DNA of 35,576 nt, from contig CAYYFM010000046.1 of NCBI GenBank assembly GCA_964471375.1, forward strand, positions 1 through 35,576. The letters are read 5' to 3'. This document shows positions 4,636-32,563 of the stretch, piece by piece (the first letter of the stretch is position 1; every line of letters starts with the position of its first letter). The position numbers and the translations under genes are program-made. The notes beneath the pieces were generated by a model. The model did no database searches and was not told where the DNA came from. It saw only the letters and a program-made list of their open reading frames with translations. The stretch is from an uncultured Gammaproteobacteria bacterium. GTDB lineage: Bacteria; Patescibacteriota; Patescibacteriia; UBA9934; GWF2-40-263.

Positions 4636-6039
4636 ATGGCTGACCCAAAGTATCATCTTATTACCCTTGGATGTCAGATGAATAAAAACGACTCTGAACG
4701 GATGGACGCCATCTTGTCCGGGGTCGGTTTTTCGTCTACAGAAAATCGTGAGGAGGCGGATGTGATTTTGGTGAACACCTGTTCGGTTCGTCAGAGTGCT
4801 GAGGATCGTGTGTTTGGTCTGATGCATGAGTTTGCGTTACTAAAAGAAACACGGCCAAATTTGATTGTCGGTGTGACGGGGTGTATGCCAGGCCGTGATC
4901 GTGACGGGAAAATTCGTAAGCGACTCGCGACCGCAGATTTATATTTTCCGATTACAGACGTTCCTCAGTTGCCTCGCTGGATTGGAGAGATACGTCCGGA
5001 ATTGGTGAACAGCGCGGATATTGAAACAGATTATTTGAAAGTGATTCCAGAACGCCGCACATTTCGTCAAGGGTTTGTGACGATCCAGACTGGTTGCAAC
5101 AAGTTTTGCACGTACTGTGTTGTTCCATTTGCGCGAGGATTGGAGAAAAATCGTCCCGTTGCGGATATTCTGAAAGAGGTCCGTGATCTCGCAGAACATG
5201 GATGTGTAGAAGTGACACTGCTCGGACAAACCGTGAATTCATATCGCGCTCCTGATCCGGAAAACTGGTCGAAAGGAAATCCGTACAGCGATCCGTTCGC
5301 TTCTTTACTTTGGGAAGTAAATCAGGTGCCAGGAATTTCCCGTCTTCATTTTACCGCACCGCATCCGCTTCATATGACAGACGAAGCAATAGACGCGATG
5401 ACGCTTCCTGCACATCAGAACTATATTCACCTTCCTGTTCAAGCAGGGGATGATGAAGTGTTGCGTCGAATGAATCGTCGGTACACGACCGCTCAGTTTC
5501 TCGACGTCGTACACCGTTTGCGGGAAAAAATCCCAAACCTGGCGATTGGGACGGATATTATTGTTGGATTCTGTGGGGAAACACGCGAGCAGTATCTGAA
5601 AACCGCCGAGTTATACGAACAGGTACGCTTCGATATTTCATACACCGCACGTTATTCGACGCGTTCTGGAACCGCTGCCGCTCGCGCGTTCAAGGATGAT
5701 GTCGATCGCGATGAGAAAAAATGGCGCTGGCAACATCTCCAAGAAATTCAAGAGCGGATCGTGTACGAAAAAAATCAGGCGTATGTTGGTAAAACAGTTT
5801 CCGTTCTCGTCGAACGCCATGAGCCGCCAGTACCGACTGATGAGATGCTTGCGTTGGGAGGAAACATCACAGATCATCTCGCCAAACTCCCAGGTACCTG
5901 TCTTGGTAACTCTCGAGAAATGAAACTCGTTCGATTCTCCGGACCAAATGAACTCCTTGGCCAGATCGTCAATGTAAAAATTAACAAAGCAGAAAAATGG
6001 ATTCTCGAAGGGGTCAGGTCTTGCTTTTTGCTTTTATGA
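4636..6039 (+). CDS. miaB: tRNA (i6A37) methylthiotransferase MiaB (radical SAM)
   Basis: N-terminal UPF0004 motif ITLGCQMNKNDSE. Radical-SAM CNKFCTYCVVP (CxxxCxxC). C-terminal TRAM-like region GQIVNVKINKA. Confidence 0.93.
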   Translation: MADPKYHLITLGCQMNKNDSERMDAILSGVGFSSTENREEADVILVNTCSVRQSAEDRVFGLMHEFALLKETRPNLIVGVTGCMPGRDRDGKIRKRLATADLYFPITDVPQLPRWIGEIRPELVNSADIETDYLKVIPERRTFRQGFVTIQTGCNKFCTYCVVPFARGLEKNRPVADILKEVRDLAEHGCVEVTLLGQTVNSYRAPDPENWSKGNPYSDPFASLLWEVNQVPGISRLHFTAPHPLHMTDEAIDAMTLPAHQNYIHLPVQAGDDEVLRRMNRRYTTAQFLDVVHRLREKIPNLAIGTDIIVGFCGETREQYLKTAELYEQVRFDISYTARYSTRSGTAAARAFKDDVDRDEKKWRWQHLQEIQERIVYEKNQAYVGKTVSVLVERHEPPVPTDEMLALGGNITDHLAKLPGTCLGNSREMKLVRFSGPNELLGQIVNVKINKAEKWILEGVRSCFLLL

Positions 6040-6070
6040 AAATAAAAGTCAAAAAGCAAGACCTGACCCC
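6010..6070. repeat. 61-nt near-perfect palindrome spanning the miaB stop and miaA start
   Basis: GGGGTCAGGTCTTGCTTTTTG (6010-6030) is the exact reverse complement of CAAAAAGCAAGACCTGACCCC (6050-6070). The inner arms CTTTTAT and ATAAAAG also pair, leaving a GAAA loop and one bulged T. The ATGA miaB-stop/miaA-start overlap (6036-6039) sits at the apex. Confidence 0.9.
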
Positions 6071-7016
6071 GTTACTTGTCATCGTTGGCCCGACCGCTTC
6101 TGGAAAGACACAGCTTGGGATTGACATTGCCAAACGGTTTAATGGTGAGGTTATTTCGGTTGATTCGAGGCAGGTGTATCGGGGAATGGATATTGGAACG
6201 GCGAAACCGAATGCAAAATGCAAAATGCAAAATGCAAAATTTCCGTTACCGATCTGGGTGGTCGATGGTATTCCTCATTGGGGGATTGATTTGGTGGAGC
6301 CGGATGAGGAGTATTCCGTTGCGGATTTTAAGAAATATGCGGATCAAAAAATTATAGAAATTTCAAAGCGAGGGAAATTACCGATATTGGTAGGAGGGAC
6401 GGGATTGTGGGTGCGAGCCGTGGTCGATAATCTGAATTTGACCGAGACTCCGCCGAATAGGGAATTGCGAACGGTGCTTGAAAAACGAGATTTGAATGAT
6501 TTGAATGCAGAATATAAACGTCTTGATCCGATAGGAGCGGAAGTCATCGATCGTGACAACAAGCGACGTGTCGTTCGCGCGCTTGAGGTGACGCTTGTGA
6601 CAGGGAAACCATTTTCTGCACAGGTTGAGCGAGGGACGGGGACGTACGATGTTTTACAGATTGGTTTGCTTGTTGATCGAGGAATACTTAACGAACGCAT
6701 CAATCAGCGTGTGGACGAAATGGTCGCGAATGGACTGGTGGACGAAGTACGTCAGTTATCTGATCAGTACGGTACTGATATTGATGCAATGACTGGGATT
6801 GGGTACAGACAAATTAGTTTATTTTTGGAAGGAAAACGACCGCTTGTTGATTGTATTGAAGAAACGAAAAAGGCCACCCGTGCTTATGCAAAGCGTCAGA
6901 TGACCTGGTTTCGGCGTGATCCACGGATTAATTGGATTCCAGTTTTACAAGCAACATATTACGAGCAATTTTTGCATCCACTGCTCCTTCGGTTTCTTTC
7001 ATCACCTGACCGATGA
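6036..7016 (+). CDS. miaA: tRNA dimethylallyltransferase MiaA
   Basis: P-loop VGPTASGKT, then SVDSRQVYRGMDIGTAKP and KRQMTWFRRD. The start is chosen at ATG 6036, which overlaps the miaB TGA, because the longer ORF from 5997 lies inside miaB. Confidence 0.9.
   Translation: MKIKVKKQDLTPLLVIVGPTASGKTQLGIDIAKRFNGEVISVDSRQVYRGMDIGTAKPNAKCKMQNAKFPLPIWVVDGIPHWGIDLVEPDEEYSVADFKKYADQKIIEISKRGKLPILVGGTGLWVRAVVDNLNLTETPPNRELRTVLEKRDLNDLNAEYKRLDPIGAEVIDRDNKRRVVRALEVTLVTGKPFSAQVERGTGTYDVLQIGLLVDRGILNERINQRVDEMVANGLVDEVRQLSDQYGTDIDAMTGIGYRQISLFLEGKRPLVDCIEETKKATRAYAKRQMTWFRRDPRINWIPVLQATYYEQFLHPLLLRFLSSPDR
6211..6240 (+). repeat. Heptanucleotide tandem repeat (ATGCAAA)x4 plus AT, inside miaA
   Basis: Direct read: atgcaaa atgcaaa atgcaaa atgcaaa at. 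It encodes NAKCKMQNAKF in an insertion between the conserved GTAKP and PHW segments of MiaA. Confidence 0.95.
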
Positions 7017-8409
7017 GGACTTGGATTAATTCTTTTTTTCCTGCTTTGTACCTGTCGACAATATCTGGATTGTTTAGGAGAACTCGGTCAATAACTTCTG
7101 CAATGGCACCTTCATCATCAATTTTTCCGAGATGCTTTTCTTCCATGATGTGTGATGGGTCTGCTCCTGTTCCAATCATCTCGGTCAGGACCGTGAGACC
7201 TGCCGTAGAGGACAGCTTTCCTGTTGCGAGTAATGTGATGAATTCTGCAAAATTTTCTGGATTGATTTTCGCCGTAGTCAGATCAAGGTTGCGTTCAATA
7301 AGCAATCCCGTGAGTTTTGACAACAACCAACCAGAAACAAGATTCGCGAGTTTGGTTTGATCTTTTACTTCTGAATCGACGCTCGACATCCAGGAAGAAA
7401 GTTCAGAAAAAACATGTTCGACAAAATCTGTCAACACGGGATCGTCACAGATTTGTCGCGCATCTTCTGGTTTCAGGCCATACTCATCAATAAATCGGGC
7501 ACGTTTTGTTGCTGGAAGCTCGGGTAATCGATGACGTTCTTCTTCTGCAATGTCTGCGAGCTCGAGAACGGGAATGTCTGGATCGGGGAAGTACCGATAA
7601 TCACCCTCACCTTCCTTGAGACGCTGTTCTTTTGTTGATTGTGTCGTATCATCCCATCCACGCGTTGTGGACACAGATGGAGGTGATCCAGCTTTCCATA
7701 AATTTGTTTGACGTTTGATTTCAAACTCAAGTGCGCGTTCCACGTTGCGGAAGGAATTGATGTTCTTTACCTCTGTTTTTGGATGAAACTTCATCCCAAT
7801 AATTCCACCTTCTGCGTCGCGTTCACGCAAGGAAATATTGGCATCACAGCGCATCTGCCCTTTTTCCATGTCTGCATCTGAGACACCGAGATAGCGTGCG
7901 ATGAGTCGCAGTTCTTGTAGAAACGCTTTTGCGTGCTGTGGAGATGCGACGTCTGGTTCTGTGACGATCTCAAGCAGAGGCGTCCCCGCGCGATTAAAAT
8001 CAACAAACGTTTTTCCCTCAACCCCATGAAGATTTTTTGCCGCGTCTTCTTCAAGATGAGCGCGCGTAATACCGATACGTTTCTCATCGATGATCAAAAA
8101 ACCTCCAGATACAATCGGCTGATCGTACTGGGAAATCTGGTACGCCTTCGGCAAATCCGGATAAAAATAGTTCTTGCGATCAAATTTTGAATGCGACGCT
8201 ATCGTTCCATTGAGTGCAAGTCCCATACGAACTCCAAACCGAATAGCCTGTTCGTTTGGAACGGGAAGAGTTCCTGGTTGAGCCGTACAGACTGGACAGA
8301 TGTTCGTATTTGGTGCCATCGCTGTTTCGTGTGCGGCACATGCACAAAACATTTTTGATTTTGTTTTCAGCTGAAGGTGAATTTCAAGTCCAATAACAGG
8401 TTCGAGCAT
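6928..8409 (-). CDS. gatB: Asp/Glu-tRNA amidotransferase subunit B
   Basis: MLEPVIGLEIHLQLKTKSKMFCAC..., a GatB/E catalytic domain and a C-terminal YqeY-like tail (LIGQVMKETEGAVDAKIARNML). The start is set at ATG 8409, since the canonical N-terminus is MLEPVIGLEIH. The ORF-track extension to 8457 runs through the upstream hairpin. Confidence 0.92.
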   Translation of the reverse strand: MLEPVIGLEIHLQLKTKSKMFCACAAHETAMAPNTNICPVCTAQPGTLPVPNEQAIRFGVRMGLALNGTIASHSKFDRKNYFYPDLPKAYQISQYDQPIVSGGFLIIDEKRIGITRAHLEEDAAKNLHGVEGKTFVDFNRAGTPLLEIVTEPDVASPQHAKAFLQELRLIARYLGVSDADMEKGQMRCDANISLRERDAEGGIIGMKFHPKTEVKNINSFRNVERALEFEIKRQTNLWKAGSPPSVSTTRGWDDTTQSTKEQRLKEGEGDYRYFPDPDIPVLELADIAEEERHRLPELPATKRARFIDEYGLKPEDARQICDDPVLTDFVEHVFSELSSWMSSVDSEVKDQTKLANLVSGWLLSKLTGLLIERNLDLTTAKINPENFAEFITLLATGKLSSTAGLTVLTEMIGTGADPSHIMEEKHLGKIDDEGAIAEVIDRVLLNNPDIVDRYKAGKKELIQVLIGQVMKETEGAVDAKIARNMLLVKLESN

Positions 8410-8442
8410 ACGTGGGAAAAATCTAAATTCTAAACAGGTTTC

Positions 8443-8476
8443 AGGGACCTCGCACATGACTTTTGCAGAGGTCCCT
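8443..8476 (-). repeat. Conserved hairpin element, copy 1 (upstream of gatB)
   Basis: The minus strand reads AGGGACCTC-TGCAAAAGTCATGTGC-GAGGTCCCT. It is 30/34 identical to 31459-31492 on the plus strand, and a stem difference is compensated (G-C versus A-T). Confidence 0.8.
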
Positions 8477-9190
8477 TTAGGACTTTCGTTCCTTCAGCTG
8501 AAGATAGGTCATCACTGAATACATCACAAGGAGAGGAATGACAAAGATCATTCCTACGGAGAAGATCATATCAATCCAGAGGGGAGGAGTTTCACTTACG
8601 ATCGTGTCGAATGGGATTTTTAATACCGTGGCAATGGTTCCAGTAAGTCCAGAGGCAACGATAAAGTATAAGCCCAAAATCAGCAAGGGGATGGAGATGG
8701 TATACCATAAAACCTTGAAAAATCGCCCACGCGATAGTTCACGACTTGCGGTCAGTGCTTCGATTCCACGTTTACCGTCAATAATGACCACTTCTTGGGC
8801 ATAGACAAACCAAACGGTGAAAACGATCCCAGGAATAATGACGAGTAAAAAACCTCCAAGCATAATGAGTCCTTGTATCAGGCTGACCCAAACGATCGGC
8901 ATGAGCAAATCCCAACCTCTTTTCGGTAAGGTAAGAAGGTCGAGAGGTTGATCATGTGTATGGTGGAGCGTGATGATCACGAGGACGTTCAGTATCCATA
9001 GGTAGAGAAGCGTATCGGCAATTTGGATGAAAAAAATTGTGGCGAATTGTACGGATTCATTTGCAATAAAACTCGACAAAATAAATGCGGCGTAGGTGAG
9101 GAGTAGCCAAGAAGCATATCCAACGATTAACGTTGATTGCTTGCGGTACAGCGCAATGGATGAATGTAAAATGTCGACAGGAGATAGCAT
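8477..9190 (-). CDS. Polytopic membrane protein (tandem paralog 2)
   Basis: It has 5-6 hydrophobic helices. The N- and C-terminal patterns resemble those of the upstream gene (LLV...Y..LK end). The start ATG lies 1 nt after the stop of the upstream gene (TGAtATG). Confidence 0.7.
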   Translation of the reverse strand: MLSPVDILHSSIALYRKQSTLIVGYASWLLLTYAAFILSSFIANESVQFATIFFIQIADTLLYLWILNVLVIITLHHTHDQPLDLLTLPKRGWDLLMPIVWVSLIQGLIMLGGFLLVIIPGIVFTVWFVYAQEVVIIDGKRGIEALTASRELSRGRFFKVLWYTISIPLLILGLYFIVASGLTGTIATVLKIPFDTIVSETPPLWIDMIFSVGMIFVIPLLVMYSVMTYLQLKERKS

Positions 9191-23688: not shown

Positions 23689-24802
23689 GAACACCATCAT
23701 CGCAAGCGCCATATTTCTGGCGCTTGTGTTTGGTTTAGGGGTGTTGATACAGAAGGAGCCAGAGGCGCCAAACGTGCCAGAGGAGCCAAAGGATGTGGTT
23801 GAAGTTTCGCTTTTCCGTCATCCGCTGACTGGCCTACCGGTCTTAAGCCTTATGCCTTCTGATCTTTCTGTCTACGCCGTCATGATCGATAATTCGGTTG
23901 ACGCATGGCCAGTTTCAGGAGTCGATAAAGCCTTTCTCGTCATCGAAGCGCCAGTGGAAGCAGCAATTCCTCGTTTGGAAGCGTTCTTCTCGTCCGACAC
24001 GGTCGTCGACAAGATCGGTCCTGTACGCTCTGCTCGCCCGTACTTTATTGACTGGGCAAACGAGTTCGATGCGCTTTATACACATGTTGGCGGTTCGAAC
24101 GCCGCACTCGAAAACATTTCGTCAACGGGAACGTTTGACATCAACGAATTCTGGAACGGAGATTATTTCTGGCGTGCTTCTGATCGCTATGCTCCGCACA
24201 ATACGTATACATCAACGGAGCTGTTAGGAAAGTATGTGGCAGCCGCTGTAGATCGAGGTCGTGCGCCAGAGGTGTTGTACGGGACATGGAAGTTCAAGGA
24301 CTGGGCAGACGCCACTAAATTGGCTAGGAACTCAGATTCCCTAGGGACTTTAGTCCCGTCCGTTACTGTCGGTCAGAGTGACCCTGTCATTGCGAGGATT
24401 CCTCAGACGACGCGGCAATCTCCCACCATCTCCATCTATTTCAATTCTGACCTGTATACAGCAACATGGACATACGATTCTGTGTCTGGACAATACATCC
24501 GCACTCAAGGTGGTCAACCCTATCTCACAGCAGACGGAATACAGATCACCGCCACCAACGTCGCGGTCATCGTGACAGACATTAAAATCCTCGACTACGT
24601 CGGCCGTCGTTCCATTCGCACGGTCGGCGAAGGAAAGGCATGGCTTGCACAAGACGGAATCACGATCGAAGCAACATGGAAAAAACCATCCACAAGTGAA
24701 CGGCTCAGATTTTTCGACATGACAGGAAATGAGATCATCATGAATGCTGGGAACACGTGGATTGAAGTTGTTGGAGAGGAGGAGGACGTGACCGTCGACT
24801 AA
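23666..24802 (+). CDS. DUF3048 (YerB-like) domain membrane-anchored protein
   Basis: An N-terminal anchor (IIASAIFLALVFGLGVLI) is followed by DNSVDAWPVSGVDKAFLVIEAPVEAAIPRLEAFF and GPVRSARPYFIDWANEFDALYTHVGGS, typical of DUF3048. It overlaps the rplY 3' end by 23 nt. Confidence 0.8.
   Translation: MPLLQKNKNTIIASAIFLALVFGLGVLIQKEPEAPNVPEEPKDVVEVSLFRHPLTGLPVLSLMPSDLSVYAVMIDNSVDAWPVSGVDKAFLVIEAPVEAAIPRLEAFFSSDTVVDKIGPVRSARPYFIDWANEFDALYTHVGGSNAALENISSTGTFDINEFWNGDYFWRASDRYAPHNTYTSTELLGKYVAAAVDRGRAPEVLYGTWKFKDWADATKLARNSDSLGTLVPSVTVGQSDPVIARIPQTTRQSPTISIYFNSDLYTATWTYDSVSGQYIRTQGGQPYLTADGIQITATNVAVIVTDIKILDYVGRRSIRTVGEGKAWLAQDGITIEATWKKPSTSERLRFFDMTGNEIIMNAGNTWIEVVGEEEDVTVD
23753..23806 (+). repeat. 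EPEEPKD cassette, DUF3048-gene copy (in frame)
   Basis: AAGGAGCCAGAGGCGCCAAACGTGCCAGAGGAGCCAAAGGATGTGGTTGAAGTT (KEPEAPNVPEEPKDVVEV). It has 39/45 identities to the queA copy, plus one 3-nt indel. Confidence 0.8.
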
Positions 24803-30249: not shown

Positions 30250-31443
30250 TTAGTTTGTGAATGTAAGCGAGTCGACGATTGTTCGGAGTGTTTGTTGCTG
30301 GCGACCGAGATTATTTTTTACGAAGCCTTGGTTTGAGAAGAGAATTCCACCAATAGATTTGTTTGGGTTGAATGCGGCGTATTCGTCTATGTCTGAAAGG
30401 ATATCTCCCCAGTCGTCCACAGATTTTGTGTACGCGTACCAAATTTGGATTCCTTGGGCGTTTGTAAACGATTCACAGCTGTCTTTCGTTTGGCACCATT
30501 GTTCAATATCATCTTCATTGGTGAAAAGTCTTGCTTGATCACCCCAGTATCCGTCACGTCCTGGAACTTCACATTCCCACGTGTCATTGATGGTGAGAAA
30601 GAGAGTTTCCATGTCATTAAATCGAGAATGAATTGTTCGATTCGTCAGACAGGTCCAAGGAGTTGTTTCAAATGTTTCTTCATGGCCAATCCCATATTCT
30701 TCTTGAGCATACACAGGGGCATAGGCAGCTGGAATTTCAAAGGAGATGCCGGTACGATCATCCTGCAACGGGATGATCGTCGCGCACGAGCTGCGTTCGG
30801 TAAACCATTCGATCGTCGACATGATTGTGCGGATGACTTCGACACGGTCGCCGAGTTCTTGATTCCAATCTTGTGCAAGGGTGAATGTGTAGAGAGATGT
30901 GTCACCAACGTTCATGAACACGGTTCCTCCAATTCCAGAAAGCCCGAGTTCATCGTCAAAGTCGTCCATGACATAATAGGCTTCACATGTACCGTTTGAG
31001 AGAGCAGGATAAAACGCATCATCCGAGTTCACTACAGAAAGATTAAATGAGAAGTCTGGATAGTTCATTTTTAACCATTCAGAAATAGTGAGTCGGTTGG
31101 CGTTTGGAATACGAGCGATTCCAAATCCTCCAAAGTCGATTCCGACTGAGTCAGTGCCCCAAGCGGTTGTGTCCCAAACAACAGGAGTCAGTTCAGATGG
31201 ATAGAGAAAACTCATGCCGATTTGTCCGGTTGTGGCGCTTTTGTAACGAACCCAGCTTTCGTCTACGTCACGTGCTGGTACAGTCGTTGGAATAGATGCT
31301 TCTGCTTTCATCTGCTCCTTTGTCGTAACTTCGACAGGGCGTGCTGCAGGAGTCTGTCCTCGAGAATTTGAGAGGCATCCCGCCCCCGTAAGAGTAATCG
31401 TCGCCATAATGGCGATAAATACCGCAGATTGTTTGATTGTCAT
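30250..31443 (-). CDS. Hypothetical lipoprotein
   Basis: Signal peptide with lipobox (AIMATITLTGAGC). The product is a 397-aa acidic, Trp-rich protein with no recognisable domain. Confidence 0.7.
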   Translation of the reverse strand: MTIKQSAVFIAIMATITLTGAGCLSNSRGQTPAARPVEVTTKEQMKAEASIPTTVPARDVDESWVRYKSATTGQIGMSFLYPSELTPVVWDTTAWGTDSVGIDFGGFGIARIPNANRLTISEWLKMNYPDFSFNLSVVNSDDAFYPALSNGTCEAYYVMDDFDDELGLSGIGGTVFMNVGDTSLYTFTLAQDWNQELGDRVEVIRTIMSTIEWFTERSSCATIIPLQDDRTGISFEIPAAYAPVYAQEEYGIGHEETFETTPWTCLTNRTIHSRFNDMETLFLTINDTWECEVPGRDGYWGDQARLFTNEDDIEQWCQTKDSCESFTNAQGIQIWYAYTKSVDDWGDILSDIDEYAAFNPNKSIGGILFSNQGFVKNNLGRQQQTLRTIVDSLTFTN

Positions 31444-31459
31444 ATTTGTGGTTAGATTA

Positions 31460-31491
31460 GAGACCTCTGCAAAAGTCCAGTGCGAGGTCTC
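31460..31491 (+). repeat. Conserved hairpin element, copy 2 (upstream of queA)
   Basis: GAGACCTC-TGCAAAAGTCCAGTGC-GAGGTCTC, 40 nt upstream of the queA ATG. It is in the same orientation relative to the downstream gene as copy 1. Confidence 0.8.
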
Positions 31492-31531
31492 ATTAGCACA
31501 TTCTACAACGAAATCATTAACTCTTGATTAC

Positions 31532-32563
31532 ATGTCAACCCCAATTACATTGTTCGACTACCATCTTCCACCTGAACAAATCGCTCAGGAACCGATGCGG
31601 CCACGGGATCACTCACGGTTGCTTTTGATGAGTCGAGAGACAGGTGAGTTACAGCATAAAAAGTTTTTTCAGATCGAAGAAGAGTTGAGGGAAGGGGATG
31701 TTTTGGTGATGAATGATTCAAAGGTGTTTAAGGCAAGGTTGAGGGGGAGAAAAGAGCCAGAAGGGCCAAATGAGCCAGAGGAGCCAAAGGATTTGGAAGT
31801 TTTTTTGTTGCGGGGAGAAGGCAAGTGTTGGTCGGCGATGGTGCGGCATGGAAAGAAGATCAACGTTGGAGATCGGATAGATTTGGGAGGACTGGTCGTG
31901 ACCGTTCTGAACAAAGATACGGACGGAACAGTGACACTTGAGTTTGACGTTGGAGTAGAAGAGGTGATCGCCTTTACAGAAACGCACGGAGAAATTCCTG
32001 TGCCGCCGTATGTCACAAAGACTCCGGATCGGTTGGAGGATTATCAGACAGTTTACGCAAAAACAGTTGGATCGGTTGCAGCGCCGACGGCGGGGTTTCA
32101 TTTTACAGATGACTTGATCGGGCGATTGAAGGGGAAGGGGGTGCAATTTGAGTTTGTCACGCTACATGTTGGGATTGGGACATTTCGACCGGTGAAAACA
32201 GAAACACTTGAAGATCATGTCATGCATAGCGAACTTGTCACGATTGAGGCCGAGACAGCAAAGCGGATTTTGCTTGCGAAACAGGAAGGGCGTCGCGTGA
32301 TCGCTGTCGGGACGACAACCGTCCGAGCGCTGGAAGGAACGCAACTGCGTGCGGGAACCCAAGATGTGAACCTATTCATCACCCCTGGTTTTGATTTCAA
32401 GATTATCGACGGTCTCATCACGAACTTCCATCTTCCAAAATCCACCCTCCTTGTTCTTGTCAGTGCATTTGCTGGTAGAGAGCACATCCTGGTTGCCTAC
32501 CAAGAAGCTGTCCGTCTCGGATATCGTTTCTTTTCCTTCGGCGACGCGATGTTTATCCATTGA
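31532..32563 (+). CDS. queA: S-adenosylmethionine:tRNA ribosyltransferase-isomerase
   Basis: LFDYHLPPEQIAQEPMRPRDHSRLL, VAAPTAGFHFT, GTTTVRALE, TNFHLPKSTLL, YRFFSFGDAM. The start is set at ATG 31532 (MSTPITLFDY). Confidence 0.92.
   Translation: MSTPITLFDYHLPPEQIAQEPMRPRDHSRLLLMSRETGELQHKKFFQIEEELREGDVLVMNDSKVFKARLRGRKEPEGPNEPEEPKDLEVFLLRGEGKCWSAMVRHGKKINVGDRIDLGGLVVTVLNKDTDGTVTLEFDVGVEEVIAFTETHGEIPVPPYVTKTPDRLEDYQTVYAKTVGSVAAPTAGFHFTDDLIGRLKGKGVQFEFVTLHVGIGTFRPVKTETLEDHVMHSELVTIEAETAKRILLAKQEGRRVIAVGTTTVRALEGTQLRAGTQDVNLFITPGFDFKIIDGLITNFHLPKSTLLVLVSAFAGREHILVAYQEAVRLGYRFFSFGDAMFIH
31751..31803 (+). repeat. EPEEPKD cassette, queA copy (in frame)
   Basis: AAAGAGCCAGAAGGGCCAAATGAGCCAGAGGAGCCAAAGGATTTGGAAGTTTTT (KEPEGPNEPEEPKDLEVF). 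It replaces the short Gly-rich turn found after ARLxGxK in canonical QueA. Confidence 0.8.

What the first reader, a model, noticed from the sequence alone, without database searches (positions are those of the whole stretch)
8443..8476. 34-nt hairpin conserved upstream of gatB and queA, with a compensatory base-pair change
The minus strand at 8476-8443 reads AGGGACCTC TGCAAAAGTCATGTGC GAGGTCCCT. The plus strand at 31459-31492 reads AGAGACCTC TGCAAAAGTCCAGTGC GAGGTCTCA, which is 30/34 identical.

The stem difference at position 3 (G versus A) is matched by C versus T at its pairing partner, so the pairing is preserved. Within the loop, GCA and TGC can extend the stem.

Both copies lie on the sense strand 23-40 nt upstream of the start codon of a tRNA-related gene: GatB (tRNA-dependent amidation) and QueA (queuosine). 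The queA copy cannot be a terminator, because its upstream neighbour is divergent.

The element is a candidate shared cis-regulatory RNA hairpin, a protein operator (8-bp half-sites separated by 16 nt) or a REP-like element.
Basis: seen in the sequence. Interest (0 to 1): 0.6.

Follow-up and report, generated by a model that had tools for sequence, protein, structure and literature searches.

The report
Collapsed MITE copies, not gene regulators
The two matching hairpins are 32-base leftovers of a small mobile DNA repeat that is scattered about thirty times through this tiny genome, not a shared control element for the gatB and queA genes.

Summary
Two near-identical hairpins lie at window 8444-8475 (-) and 31460-31491 (+), 33 and 39 nt upstream of gatB and queA.

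The terminal motif GRGACCTCTGCAAAAGTC occurs at 30 loci, on both strands, in this 1.14-Mb genome (reversed-motif control: 0). It is the terminal inverted repeat of a 161-bp fold-back MITE with 4-bp AT-rich target-site duplications (39 of 75 paired elements perfect; control 0 of 75).

Each window copy equals exactly what remains when a resident 161-bp copy loses the DNA between two GAGGTC direct repeats. C37 gives copy 1 and C48 gives copy 2.

The closest congener, G008, lacks the hairpin at both orthologous sites. Seven other congeners have no copy at all. Precise empty sites show insertion polymorphism.

The G/A-C/T "compensatory" change marks two subfamilies. The arms co-vary along the whole element (18 of 67 pairs).

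The termini match the IS5-family type already in print (ISNme1, P. gingivalis MITEs; PMC4596501). No cognate transposase was found in this genome.

Verdict: a new member of a known kind, of modest interest.

The parts
8444..8475 (-). 32-bp collapsed MITE copy 1 (GGG...ATG subfamily), a hairpin with an 8-bp terminal stem plus GCA/TGC
   Evidence: Identical to the product of deleting between the two GAGGTC repeats of full-length copy C37:21185-21345.
8476..8479 (-). Left flank TAAA (includes the TAA stop of ORF 8477-9190), the presumed target-site duplication partner
   Evidence: It matches the right flank TGAA (8440-8443) at 3 of 4 positions.
8440..8443 (-). Right flank TGAA, an imperfect duplicate of TAAA
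31460..31491 (+). 32-bp collapsed MITE copy 2 (GAG...CAG subfamily)
   Evidence: Identical to the product of deleting between the GAGGTC repeats of full-length copy C48:12445-12605.
31456..31459 (+). Target-site duplication ATTA, left copy
   Evidence: ATTA directly flanks the element on both sides.
31492..31495 (+). Target-site duplication ATTA, right copy
6928..8409 (-). gatB (neighbour of copy 1, not part of the element)
   Evidence: Pfam GatB_N 6e-110 and GatB_Yqey.
8477..9190 (-). Upstream co-directional ORF (237 aa, no Pfam family). Its stop codon abuts copy 1.
31532..32563 (+). queA (neighbour of copy 2)
   Evidence: Pfam Queuosine_synth 1e-125.
30250..31443 (-). Divergent ORF (397 aa, no Pfam family). 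Its start lies 16 nt from copy 2.

Best explanation
Both hairpins are 32-bp internally deleted copies of a 161-bp fold-back MITE, a non-autonomous DNA transposon. The family's termini (GRGACCTCTGCAAAAGTC) are of the IS5-family type.

The parent element inserts at AT-rich 4-bp targets in intergenic spacers and duplicates the target. A DDE transposase supplied in trans presumably moves it (inferred).

The 32-bp form is what remains after loss of the DNA between two GAGGTC direct repeats, at positions 25 and 154 of the element. Most likely this happened by replication slippage across the long palindrome or by abortive gap repair (inferred).

The two window copies come from two subfamilies. That is why the terminal pair differs on both sides.

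Their position upstream of gatB and queA reflects where intergenic AT-rich targets are available. They are not a shared regulator. Any effect of the RNA stem-loop on the neighbouring transcripts would be incidental.
For: - Copy number. The 16-nt core gives 20/31/41 hits at 0/1/2 mismatches in the genome. The reversed control gives 0/0/0. There are 30 loci on both strands.
- Size classes. There are eight complete 161-bp copies plus one cut by a contig end. There are also 130-, 76-, 32- and 20-bp forms, and other classes that share the termini.
- Target duplications. Of 75 distinct paired elements (G000, G008 loci and 119 loci from named genome records), 39 have perfect 4-bp duplications and 7 match at 3 of 4. 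The next-4-nt control gives 0 of 75.
- Insertion polymorphism. G008 insertions L158 (TGTT), L166 (TATG) and the 20-bp L162 (TAAA) face empty sites in G000. The G000 32-bp copy at C43:1668 faces a precise empty TTTA site in G008.
- Orthologous sites. The gatB-upstream site in G008 lacks the hairpin. The queA-upstream site lacks it and carries an unrelated MITE instead.
- Distribution. The motif is multi-copy in 7 of 41 genomes (G000 plus 40 relatives), single-copy in 4 and not found in 30. Only 1 of 8 congeners has it.
- Origin of the short form. In-silico deletion between the GAGGTC repeats of C37 reproduces copy 1 exactly, and of C48 reproduces copy 2 exactly.
- Arm covariation. Across 17 full copies there are 67 pairs, 18 with double-sided changes, and 98.8% of cells paired. 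Shuffles give 93.0 +/- 0.4 (0 of 500 reach the observed value) and slid controls give 30-44%.
- Terminus type. IS5/IS1182-like ISs in relatives G022 and G033 and in metagenomes end in GAGACCGTTGCAAAACTC, 15 of 18. A truncated IS5-family transposase gene in a Tannerella genome ends in GAGACCTCTGCAAAAGCC, 17 of 18. PMC4596501 (passages read) lists GAGACCTTTGCAAAA for IS5-family ISNme1 and similar termini for P. gingivalis MITEs.
- No other class fits. Neither hairpin matches a terminator or promoter pattern, and Rfam gives no match.
Against: - No cognate transposase was found in G000. PF01609 and PF13586 gave nothing, and tblastn with three related transposases gave nothing below E 0.43.
- No intact IS with the exact termini was found anywhere I looked. 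Trans-mobilisation by an IS5-family enzyme is therefore inferred from terminus similarity and the 4-bp duplication only.
- Copy 1 has an imperfect duplication (TAAA/TGAA). Relative to G008 it also carries about 13 extra nt beside the element.
- No orthologous site with a 161-bp parent was found for any 32-bp copy. In-situ deletion is therefore not directly shown.
- G000 has eight 32-bp copies and G008 has none. That pattern fits spread of the short form as well as it fits repeated deletion.
- In G000, 5 of 22 genes whose starts adjoin a family member are tRNA-related: GatB, QueA, AlaRS, HisRS and CysRS. This is more than my rough 4% expectation (a recalled estimate), although it was not reproduced in G008.
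- There are no expression data.
Confidence: 0.87

Rival explanations
1. The 32-bp (and 20-bp) hairpins are themselves mobile 'nano-MITEs'. They would be cut and pasted by the same transposase using one full 18-bp end and an 8-bp end, rather than each arising by in-situ collapse of a 161-bp insertion.
For: - Among the eight 32-bp copies, four have perfect 4-bp duplications and two match at 3 of 4 (and my reading of the flanks).
- One copy faces a precise empty site in G008.
- G000 has eight 32-bp copies and G008 none, although both hold full copies with the two GAGGTC repeats.
- TIR-only elements of 35-65 bp occur in other phyla.
Against: - All eight 32-bp copies differ from one another, and all four terminus/loop combinations occur, as expected from separate parents.
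- By contrast, the 161-bp ATG-type copies are 96-99% alike.
- The right end of the 32-bp form matches the 18-nt terminus at only 9 of 18 positions (my count).
- A target duplication survives in-situ deletion, so it does not discriminate between the two models.
Confidence: 0.2
2. The hairpins, whatever their origin, have been co-opted. As RNA stem-loops in the intercistronic region before gatB and in the queA leader, they would modulate mRNA stability, processing or read-through, as reported for ERIC and Correia elements (recalled).
For: - The stems are stable: -19.7 and -16.4 kcal/mol, z -5 and -4.
- Copy 1 sits between co-directional ORFs, 1 nt after a stop codon.
- Five of six clean 32-bp copies have the loop in the sense orientation of the downstream gene (not significant, one-sided p about 0.11).
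- The arms co-vary family-wide.
Against: - There is no conservation at orthologous sites.
- There is no T-run or terminator-like pattern.
- No expression data are available.
- Covariation is equally expected if the fold-back matters for transposition itself.
Confidence: 0.1
3. A shared cis-regulatory RNA or protein operator dedicated to tRNA-related genes.
For: - Both window copies precede tRNA-related genes.
- Other family members precede AlaRS, HisRS and CysRS in G000.
Against: - The hairpin is absent from the gatB and queA upstream regions of G008 and from 7 of 8 congeners.
- In G008, 0 of 10 adjacent genes examined are tRNA-related (1 of 11 identified was left out for the 10-protein limit).
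- Pooling the independent sets gives 3 of 30, against about 1.2 expected on my rough 4% estimate.
- Other neighbours are PGK, CTP synthase, NifU, a glycosyltransferase and nucleases.
- Rfam gives no match.
Confidence: 0.03
4. A REP/REPIN element moved by a RAYT (Y1 HUH) transposase.
For: - The element is a short palindrome, multi-copy and intergenic.
- Y1_Tnp-domain genes exist in G000: 3 matches, 2 of them over the Pfam cut-off.
Against: - The elements have true terminal inverted repeats and 4-bp target duplications. REPs have neither (recalled).
- The G000 Y1_Tnp genes lie on contigs C54, C1 and C73, which hold no copy of the element.
- Y1_Tnp occurs in 33 of 41 genomes and does not track the repeat, which is multi-copy in 7 of 41.
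Confidence: 0.02

Closest known systems
MITEs derived from IS5-family insertion sequences with GAGACC..TGCAAAA termini: Neisseria ATR (parent ISNme1) and P. gingivalis BrickBuilt / MITEPgRS (ISPg1/3/4/9). Source: PMC4596501, passages read.
   Same: The terminal sequence type is the same. ISNme1's GAGACCTTTGCAAAA differs from this family's first 15 nt at one position. Both are non-coding and multi-copy (10-20 per genome in that paper, 30 loci here), have short target duplications, and lack any transposase remnant inside.
   Different: The interior is unrelated and the host phylum is different. Here the whole 161 bp is a co-varying fold-back. The duplication is consistently 4 bp. No resident parent IS was found in the genome.
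ERIC/IRU and Correia (NEMIS) elements of enterobacteria and Neisseria
   Same: They are imperfect palindromes of about 100-160 bp in intergenic, often transcribed, regions, with short target duplications and internally deleted variants. Compensatory changes that keep the hairpin, and effects on mRNA stability, have been reported for them.
   Different: Their termini are different, their duplication is TA rather than 4 bp, and their lineages are different. No expression or processing data exist for the present family.
REP/REPIN elements with RAYT transposases.
   Same: They are 20-40-nt intergenic palindromes present in many copies.
   Different: REPs lack terminal inverted repeats and target duplications and are tied to a flanked RAYT gene. 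Neither condition holds here.
IS5/IS1182-like insertion sequence of relatives G022/G033 and of metagenome contigs (L151, L150, L169).
   Same: The termini GAGACCGTTGCAAAACTC match the MITE end at 15 of 18 positions. These ISs occur in two relatives that also carry the MITE termini.
   Different: The three terminal differences are fixed. The IS is absent from G000, G008, G013 and G031 and was found in only 1 of 401 genomes sampled from the phylum. Its own target duplication is unclear.

Membership tests
MITE (non-autonomous DNA transposon) | Short, with no coding capacity | tested here: met
   Forms of 161, 130, 76, 32 and 20 bp. No ORF of a transposase lies inside any of 26 candidate loci examined.
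MITE (non-autonomous DNA transposon) | Terminal inverted repeats | tested here: met
   GRGACCTCTGCAAAAGTC is present at both ends of the paired elements. In the 32-bp form, 8 bp are perfect.
MITE (non-autonomous DNA transposon) | Target-site duplication of fixed length | tested here: met
   39 of 75 are perfect 4-bp duplications and 7 of 75 match at 3 of 4. The control gives 0 of 75. Copy 2 has ATTA/ATTA and copy 1 has TAAA/TGAA.
MITE (non-autonomous DNA transposon) | Multi-copy, dispersed, with insertion polymorphism against empty sites | tested here: met
   30 loci in G000. Precise empty sites are shown.
MITE (non-autonomous DNA transposon) | A related autonomous IS with matching termini | tested here: inconclusive
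   The best matches are 15 of 18 (intact IS in G022 and in metagenomes) and 17 of 18 (truncated IS5-family copy in a Tannerella genome). No intact IS with identical ends was found.
IS5-family-derived element | Termini of the IS5-family type (GAGACC..TGCAAAA) and a short (here 4-bp) duplication | tested here: met
   Terminus comparison with ISNme1/ISPg in PMC4596501 and with ISs whose transposases score as IS5_4/IS1182 in NCBIfam. That IS5-group elements make 4-bp duplications is recalled, not tested.
IS5-family-derived element | Mobilisation by an IS5-family DDE transposase | not testable with these tools
   This needs a transposition assay. No resident candidate gene was found in G000.
REP/REPIN-RAYT | Association with a RAYT gene flanked by the repeats; no target duplication | tested here: not met
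   The Y1_Tnp genes lie on contigs without the element and do not track it across 41 genomes. Target duplications are present.
Conserved cis-regulatory RNA (riboswitch, leader) | Conservation at orthologous positions in relatives; a known family model | tested here: not met
   Absent at both orthologous sites in G008. There are 0 copies in 7 of 8 congeners. Rfam gives 0 at gathering score and only chance-level hits at E up to 10.
Intrinsic terminator | GC-rich stem followed by a T-run | tested here: not met
   No terminator-like site at either hairpin. The tails read TGAAACCT and ATTAGCAC.

The most novel reading that the evidence does not exclude
The fold-back elements, including the 32-bp minis, are moved in genomes that encode no cognate transposase. 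The enzyme would come from outside the cell lineage, for example from a host bacterium, a phage or a plasmid of these ultra-small bacteria. This would explain why copies 96-99% identical sit at non-orthologous sites in two species whose flanking DNA is only about 72-94% identical. It would also explain why the fold-back structure, conserved asymmetric bulge included, is kept by compensatory change.
Probability: 0.12. Interest if true: 0.65.

Novelty: new member of a known kind. Interest (0 to 1): 0.3.

Why it matters
For annotation, the two hairpins should be labelled as MITE remnants. They should not be used to infer co-regulation of gatB and queA.

For mobile-element biology, the family is a tidy case in a roughly 1.1-Mb, probably Patescibacteria-like genome (inferred from named Candidatus Uhrbacteria records that carry the same 161-bp element). 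It offers:
- thirty non-autonomous copies with no resident transposase found;
- a full decay series, 161 to 76 to 32 to 20 bp, with microhomology at each junction;
- arms that co-vary over 67 pairs;
- an 18-nt terminus shared word for word with short elements in Bacteroidota, Planctomycetota, Proteobacteria and other records.

The repeats also break the assembly. One copy is cut by a contig end, and metagenome contigs end at the element.

Tried and rejected
- **Rfam.** The window at gathering score gave 0 matches. At E up to 1 or 10, four loci with full copies and the copy-1 region gave only chance-level hits far below gathering score: mir-239, snoRNAs and CPEB3.
- **Terminator and promoter scans.** Nothing at either hairpin.
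- **Search for a parent IS.**
  - PF01609 and PF13586 found nothing in G000.
  - PF01609 in five motif-bearing relatives hit 2 of 5.
  - The G022 transposase was found in 1 of 401 genomes sampled from the phylum.
  - It was found in 1 of 5 motif-bearing genomes reached through named loci, at 100% identity in G442.
  - 26 genome-record loci without a nearby second end held no transposase-like ORF by inspection of the ORF lists.
  - PF01609 in five isolate genomes, then a fragment search in 61 genomes, gave ISs with similar but not identical ends.
  - tblastn of three transposases against G000 gave nothing below E 0.43.
- **Plasmids.** The nearest annotated relatives are 'IS5 family transposase' at 27-28% identity. 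Their ends (TGGGCCTGTTGCGTAATT; TAGGGAAGGTCTGAA) resemble the motif only loosely.
- **Literature.**
  - 13-mers of the MITE and IS termini found only unrelated primer-type hits by title: 1 paper and 8 papers.
  - 'miniature inverted-repeat transposable' plus IS1182 found 6 papers, none on this element by title.
  - 'miniature inverted-repeat' plus Patescibacteria found 2 papers, both unrelated by title and abstract. An earlier, looser search listed 15 of 416 papers, none of which held the MITE phrase.
  - I therefore found no description of this family.
- **Sequencing runs.** No RNA holder was listed. Contigs of two DNA metagenome runs were laid on window 8150-8750. Summed contig depth at 8444-8485 was 124-196, against 14.6 over the upstream ORF in X1. 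Contigs end at the element, as expected for a repeat. No contig bridged the site, so nothing can be said on presence/absence alleles.
- **In-situ deletion test.** The G008 sites orthologous to four further 32-bp copies either were empty (C19, C43) or had lost synteny on one side (C48, C90). None held a 161-bp parent.
- **tRNA-gene enrichment.** See the rival explanations. I reject it as not reproduced.
- **The search of earlier findings.** It was closed and nothing was taken from it.
- **Not used.** Structure prediction, complex prediction, fold search, the search of protein representatives, the search for homologous proteins and build_rna_model were not needed.

Full report
**1. Observation**

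A 28-nt pattern spanning stem and loop finds exactly these two sites in the window and none in 100 shuffles.

Both fold into the predicted hairpin, with 8-9 outer pairs plus GCA/TGC. Energies are -19.7 and -16.4 kcal/mol, with z-scores of -5.0 and -4.0.

By my count the two 34-mers share 29 of 34 positions, not 30. The element itself is 32 nt: 8444-8475 on the minus strand and 31460-31491 on the plus strand. Pfam confirms GatB (6928-8409, -) and QueA (31532-32563, +). The hairpins end 33 and 39 nt before the two start codons.

Copy 1 begins one base after the TAA stop of the co-directional upstream ORF 8477-9190. Copy 2 lies in an 88-nt spacer between queA and a divergent ORF.

**2. It is a dispersed repeat**

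The whole genome is 1,136,340 bases in 98 contigs and 98.4% complete.

| Mismatches allowed in the 16-nt core GACCTCTGCAAAAGTC | Hits | Reversed-pattern control |
|---|---|---|
| 0 | 20 | 0 |
| 1 | 31 | 0 |
| 2 | 41 | 0 |

The tool's own count at up to one mismatch is 20 forward and 12 reverse. The hits resolve into 30 loci:

- eight complete 161-bp elements, plus a ninth cut by a contig end;
- one 130-bp and one 76-bp element;
- four elements of another class with GGGACTAAAGTCCC hairpins inside;
- eight 32-bp elements, including the two in the window (two of the eight are degenerate);
- two 20-bp palindromes;
- a few single ends.

All lie between ORFs. Many are within 0-6 nt of a stop codon or 21-29 nt of a start codon.

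**3. It is a MITE with 4-bp target duplications**

In the 161-bp form the motif GRGACCTCTGCAAAAGTC stands at both ends in inverted orientation.

I pooled paired elements from G000, from loci of the congener G008, and from 119 loci returned by an exact-pattern scan of named genome records. This gave 75 distinct elements. Of these, 39 have identical tetranucleotides directly outside the two ends and 7 more match at 3 of 4. The next four bases outward match in 0 of 75. The duplicated words are AT-rich (TATA, TATT, TATG, AATG, TAAA, TTAA and others).

Copy 2 in the window is flanked by ATTA on both sides. Copy 1 is flanked by TAAA and TGAA, and the TAAA contains the upstream gene's stop codon.

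**4. Mobility**

G008 is the closest genome held, at about 79% identity around gatB. It carries the same family at other places.

- Its 161-bp insertions L158 and L166 and its 20-bp insertion L162 face sites in G000 that are empty. Those sites hold one copy of the duplicated tetranucleotide: TGTT, TATG, and TAAA (read as TGAA in G000).
- Conversely, the G000 32-bp copy at C43:1668-1699 faces a precise empty site in G008. G008 has a single TTTA where G000 has TTTA, 32 bp, TTTA.

**5. The two window sites in relatives**

- At the gatB site, G008 reads ...CCTAAA|ATTTTAGATTTTTCC. It has no hairpin. G000 also carries about 13 further bases there.
- At the queA site, G008 has no copy of this element. 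It holds an unrelated element of about 156 bp with its own inverted ends, TACTATCTCCAA...TTGGAGATAGTA.
- The other seven genomes of the genus have no hit to the motif anywhere.

Across G000 plus 40 relatives the motif is multi-copy in seven genomes: G000 32, G022 42, G008 24, G013 17, G033 8, G031 7 and G024 6. It is single-copy in four and not found in thirty. The reversed control is zero everywhere. This is a patchy, copy-number-variable distribution, not a conserved leader.

**6. How the 32-bp form relates to the 161-bp form**

Read from one end, the full element starts GGGACCTCTGCAAAAGTCATGTGC-GAGGTC-AAATCG... and ends ...GCA-GAGGTC-CC. GAGGTC therefore occurs as a direct repeat at positions 25 and 154, bracketing the long inner palindrome.

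Removing one repeat and everything between them gives a 32-mer. From full copy C37:21185-21345 this 32-mer is identical to window copy 1. From full copy C48:12445-12605 it is identical to window copy 2.

Other short forms show the same logic with other microhomologies:

- GGGACCTCTGCAGAGGTCCC, joined at the palindromic TGCA;
- GAGACCTCTGCAAAAGTCTC, joined at GTC;
- a 76-bp form.

I infer slippage across the palindrome, or abortive gap repair, as the process. Neither is shown.

The eight 32-bp copies all differ from one another and include all four combinations of terminus (GGG/GAG) and loop (ATG/CAG). The full ATG-type copies, in contrast, are 96-99% alike. This fits older, independently collapsed insertions.

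Against that, G008 has full copies with both GAGGTC repeats yet no 32-bp form. No orthologous site with a full-length parent was found. Transposition of the short form itself therefore stays open, at about 0.2.

**7. The compensatory change**

Copy 1 belongs to a GGG...ATG subfamily and copy 2 to a GAG...CAG subfamily. Both subfamilies exist as full-length copies in G000 and in G008.

In an alignment of 17 full copies the consensus fold has 67 pairs, of which 18 show changes on both sides. 98.8% of cells form standard pairs. In 500 column shuffles the mean is 93.0 +/- 0.4%, and none reaches the observed value. With the partner slid by 1-3 columns the figure is 30-44%.

An asymmetric bulge (GAGGTC opposite GGCTTC) is kept in all subfamilies. 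The copies are related, so the shuffle test overstates significance. Selection for transposition competence, or arm-to-arm repair, could each produce this. I cannot tell which.

**8. Which transposase**

G000 has no DDE_Tnp_1 or DDE_Tnp_1_2 match. It also has no tblastn match below E 0.43 to three related transposases.

Two relatives that carry the motif, G022 and G033, hold an IS of about 1.3 kb with a 352-376-aa transposase.
- Pfam assigns DUF772, DDE_Tnp_1 and DDE_Tnp_1_6.
- NCBIfam's best models are IS1182 and IS5_4, both below their cut-offs.
- Its ends read GAGACCGTTGCAAAACTC, matching the MITE terminus at 15 of 18 positions.
- The same ends flank relatives on metagenome contigs, down to 25% protein identity.

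In isolate genomes of oral Bacteroidota, IS5-family ISs end in GAGACCTTTGCAAAAT... A truncated IS5_4-type transposase gene in a Tannerella genome ends in GAGACCTCTGCAAAAGCC, 17 of 18.

PMC4596501 (passages read) tabulates GAGACCTTTGCAAAA for the IS5-family ISNme1, the proposed parent of the Neisseria ATR MITE. It gives GAGACCTTTGCA and GAGACTGTTGCA for the P. gingivalis MITEs BrickBuilt and MITEPgRS, whose ends match ISPg1/3/4/9.

The terminus type is thus in print as an IS5-family type. The exact parent of this family was not found. That IS5-group elements make 4-bp duplications is recalled from the ISfinder summaries, not tested here.

**9. Breadth**

My estimate of the chance expectation is about 35.

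The records are labelled Candidatus Uhrbacteria and other Patescibacteria, Planctomycetota/Brocadiales, Prevotella, Tannerella, Alloprevotella, Sphingomonas, Lautropia, Verrucomicrobia and others. Several records have 3-5 hits each. In most loci a second, inverted end lies 35-350 bp away with an unrelated interior. None of 26 loci without a near second end showed a transposase-like ORF. Labels of metagenome bins may be unreliable.

**10. Rivals tested**

- REP/RAYT. Y1_Tnp-domain genes occur in 33 of 41 genomes, whether or not the motif is present. In G000 they lie on contigs without any copy. The target duplications also argue against a Y1 mechanism.
- Terminator or promoter. No pattern match.
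- Known RNA family. None.
- tRNA-gene association.
  - In G000, 22 gene starts adjoin a family member. Five are tRNA-related: GatB, QueA, AlaRS, HisRS and CysRS. An RluA-type pseudouridine synthase and a release factor are also among the neighbours.
  - The rest are PGK, CTP synthase, NifU, a glycosyltransferase, signal peptidase, nucleases and unknowns.
  - Leaving out the two genes that prompted the idea, 3 of 20 are tRNA-related.
  - I read this as chance, helped by aminoacyl-tRNA synthetase genes usually standing alone with their own spacers.

**11. Verdict**

The hairpins are collapsed copies of an IS5-type fold-back MITE, a new member of a known kind.

Shown:
- repeat family;
- inverted ends;
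- 4-bp duplications;
- empty sites;
- absence at orthologous sites;
- subfamily origin of the paired difference;
- exact match to the deletion products.

Inferred:
- the enzyme;
- the deletion process;
- neutrality at the two loci.

Interest is modest. The fold-back covariation, the lack of a resident transposase, and near-identical copies shared by two diverged species are the parts worth a specialist's look.

Noticed in passing
window 31754-31792 (inside queA) and window 23756-23794; also G000 contigs C50, C11, C73, C27: A second, unrelated repeat with 9-nt periodicity (GAGCCAnnn) occurs on both strands at several genomic places. In queA it is in frame and encodes an EPEGPNEPEEPKD-like insert.
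   Followed up: partly
L022 about 1290-1450 (G008:C4, orthologous to window about 31450-31500): At the queA-upstream site the congener carries a different MITE-like element of about 156 bp with ends TACTATCTCCAA...TTGGAGATAGTA. The same spacer was therefore hit independently by two repeat families.
   Followed up: no
G000 C64:7071-7167, C91:3793-3900, C6:6590-6704, C35:28489-28640: A further class shares the same termini but has GGGACTAAAGTCCC hairpins inside. All four copies end 21-24 nt before the start of the next gene: HisRS, CysRS, an RluA-type pseudouridine synthase and NifU. The constant spacing is unexplained. An outward-facing -35-like TTGCAG in the terminus is a possibility I did not test.
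   Followed up: partly
G000 C19:10284-10326 (L234 685-727): Yet another short repeat lies directly beside the 32-bp copy at C19. It matches several G008 contigs (C10, C18, C5, C32).
   Followed up: no
G000 C54:964-1185, C1:4771-5043, C73:36430-36651: Y1_Tnp (IS200/RAYT-like) domain genes with open frames of 200-350 aa are present here and in 33 of 41 related genomes. They are not linked to the repeat studied.
   Followed up: partly
17 full-length copies in G000 and G008 (e.g. C37:21185-21345; L161:877-1037): Copies of the same subfamily are 96-99% identical between two genomes whose flanking DNA is about 72-94% identical, and they sit at non-orthologous sites. This suggests recent spread in both, or horizontal transfer.
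   Followed up: partly
window 5997-7016 (+) and 6928-8409 (-): miaA (IPP transferase) and gatB converge, and their ORFs overlap by 89 nt at the 3' ends as called mechanically.
   Followed up: no
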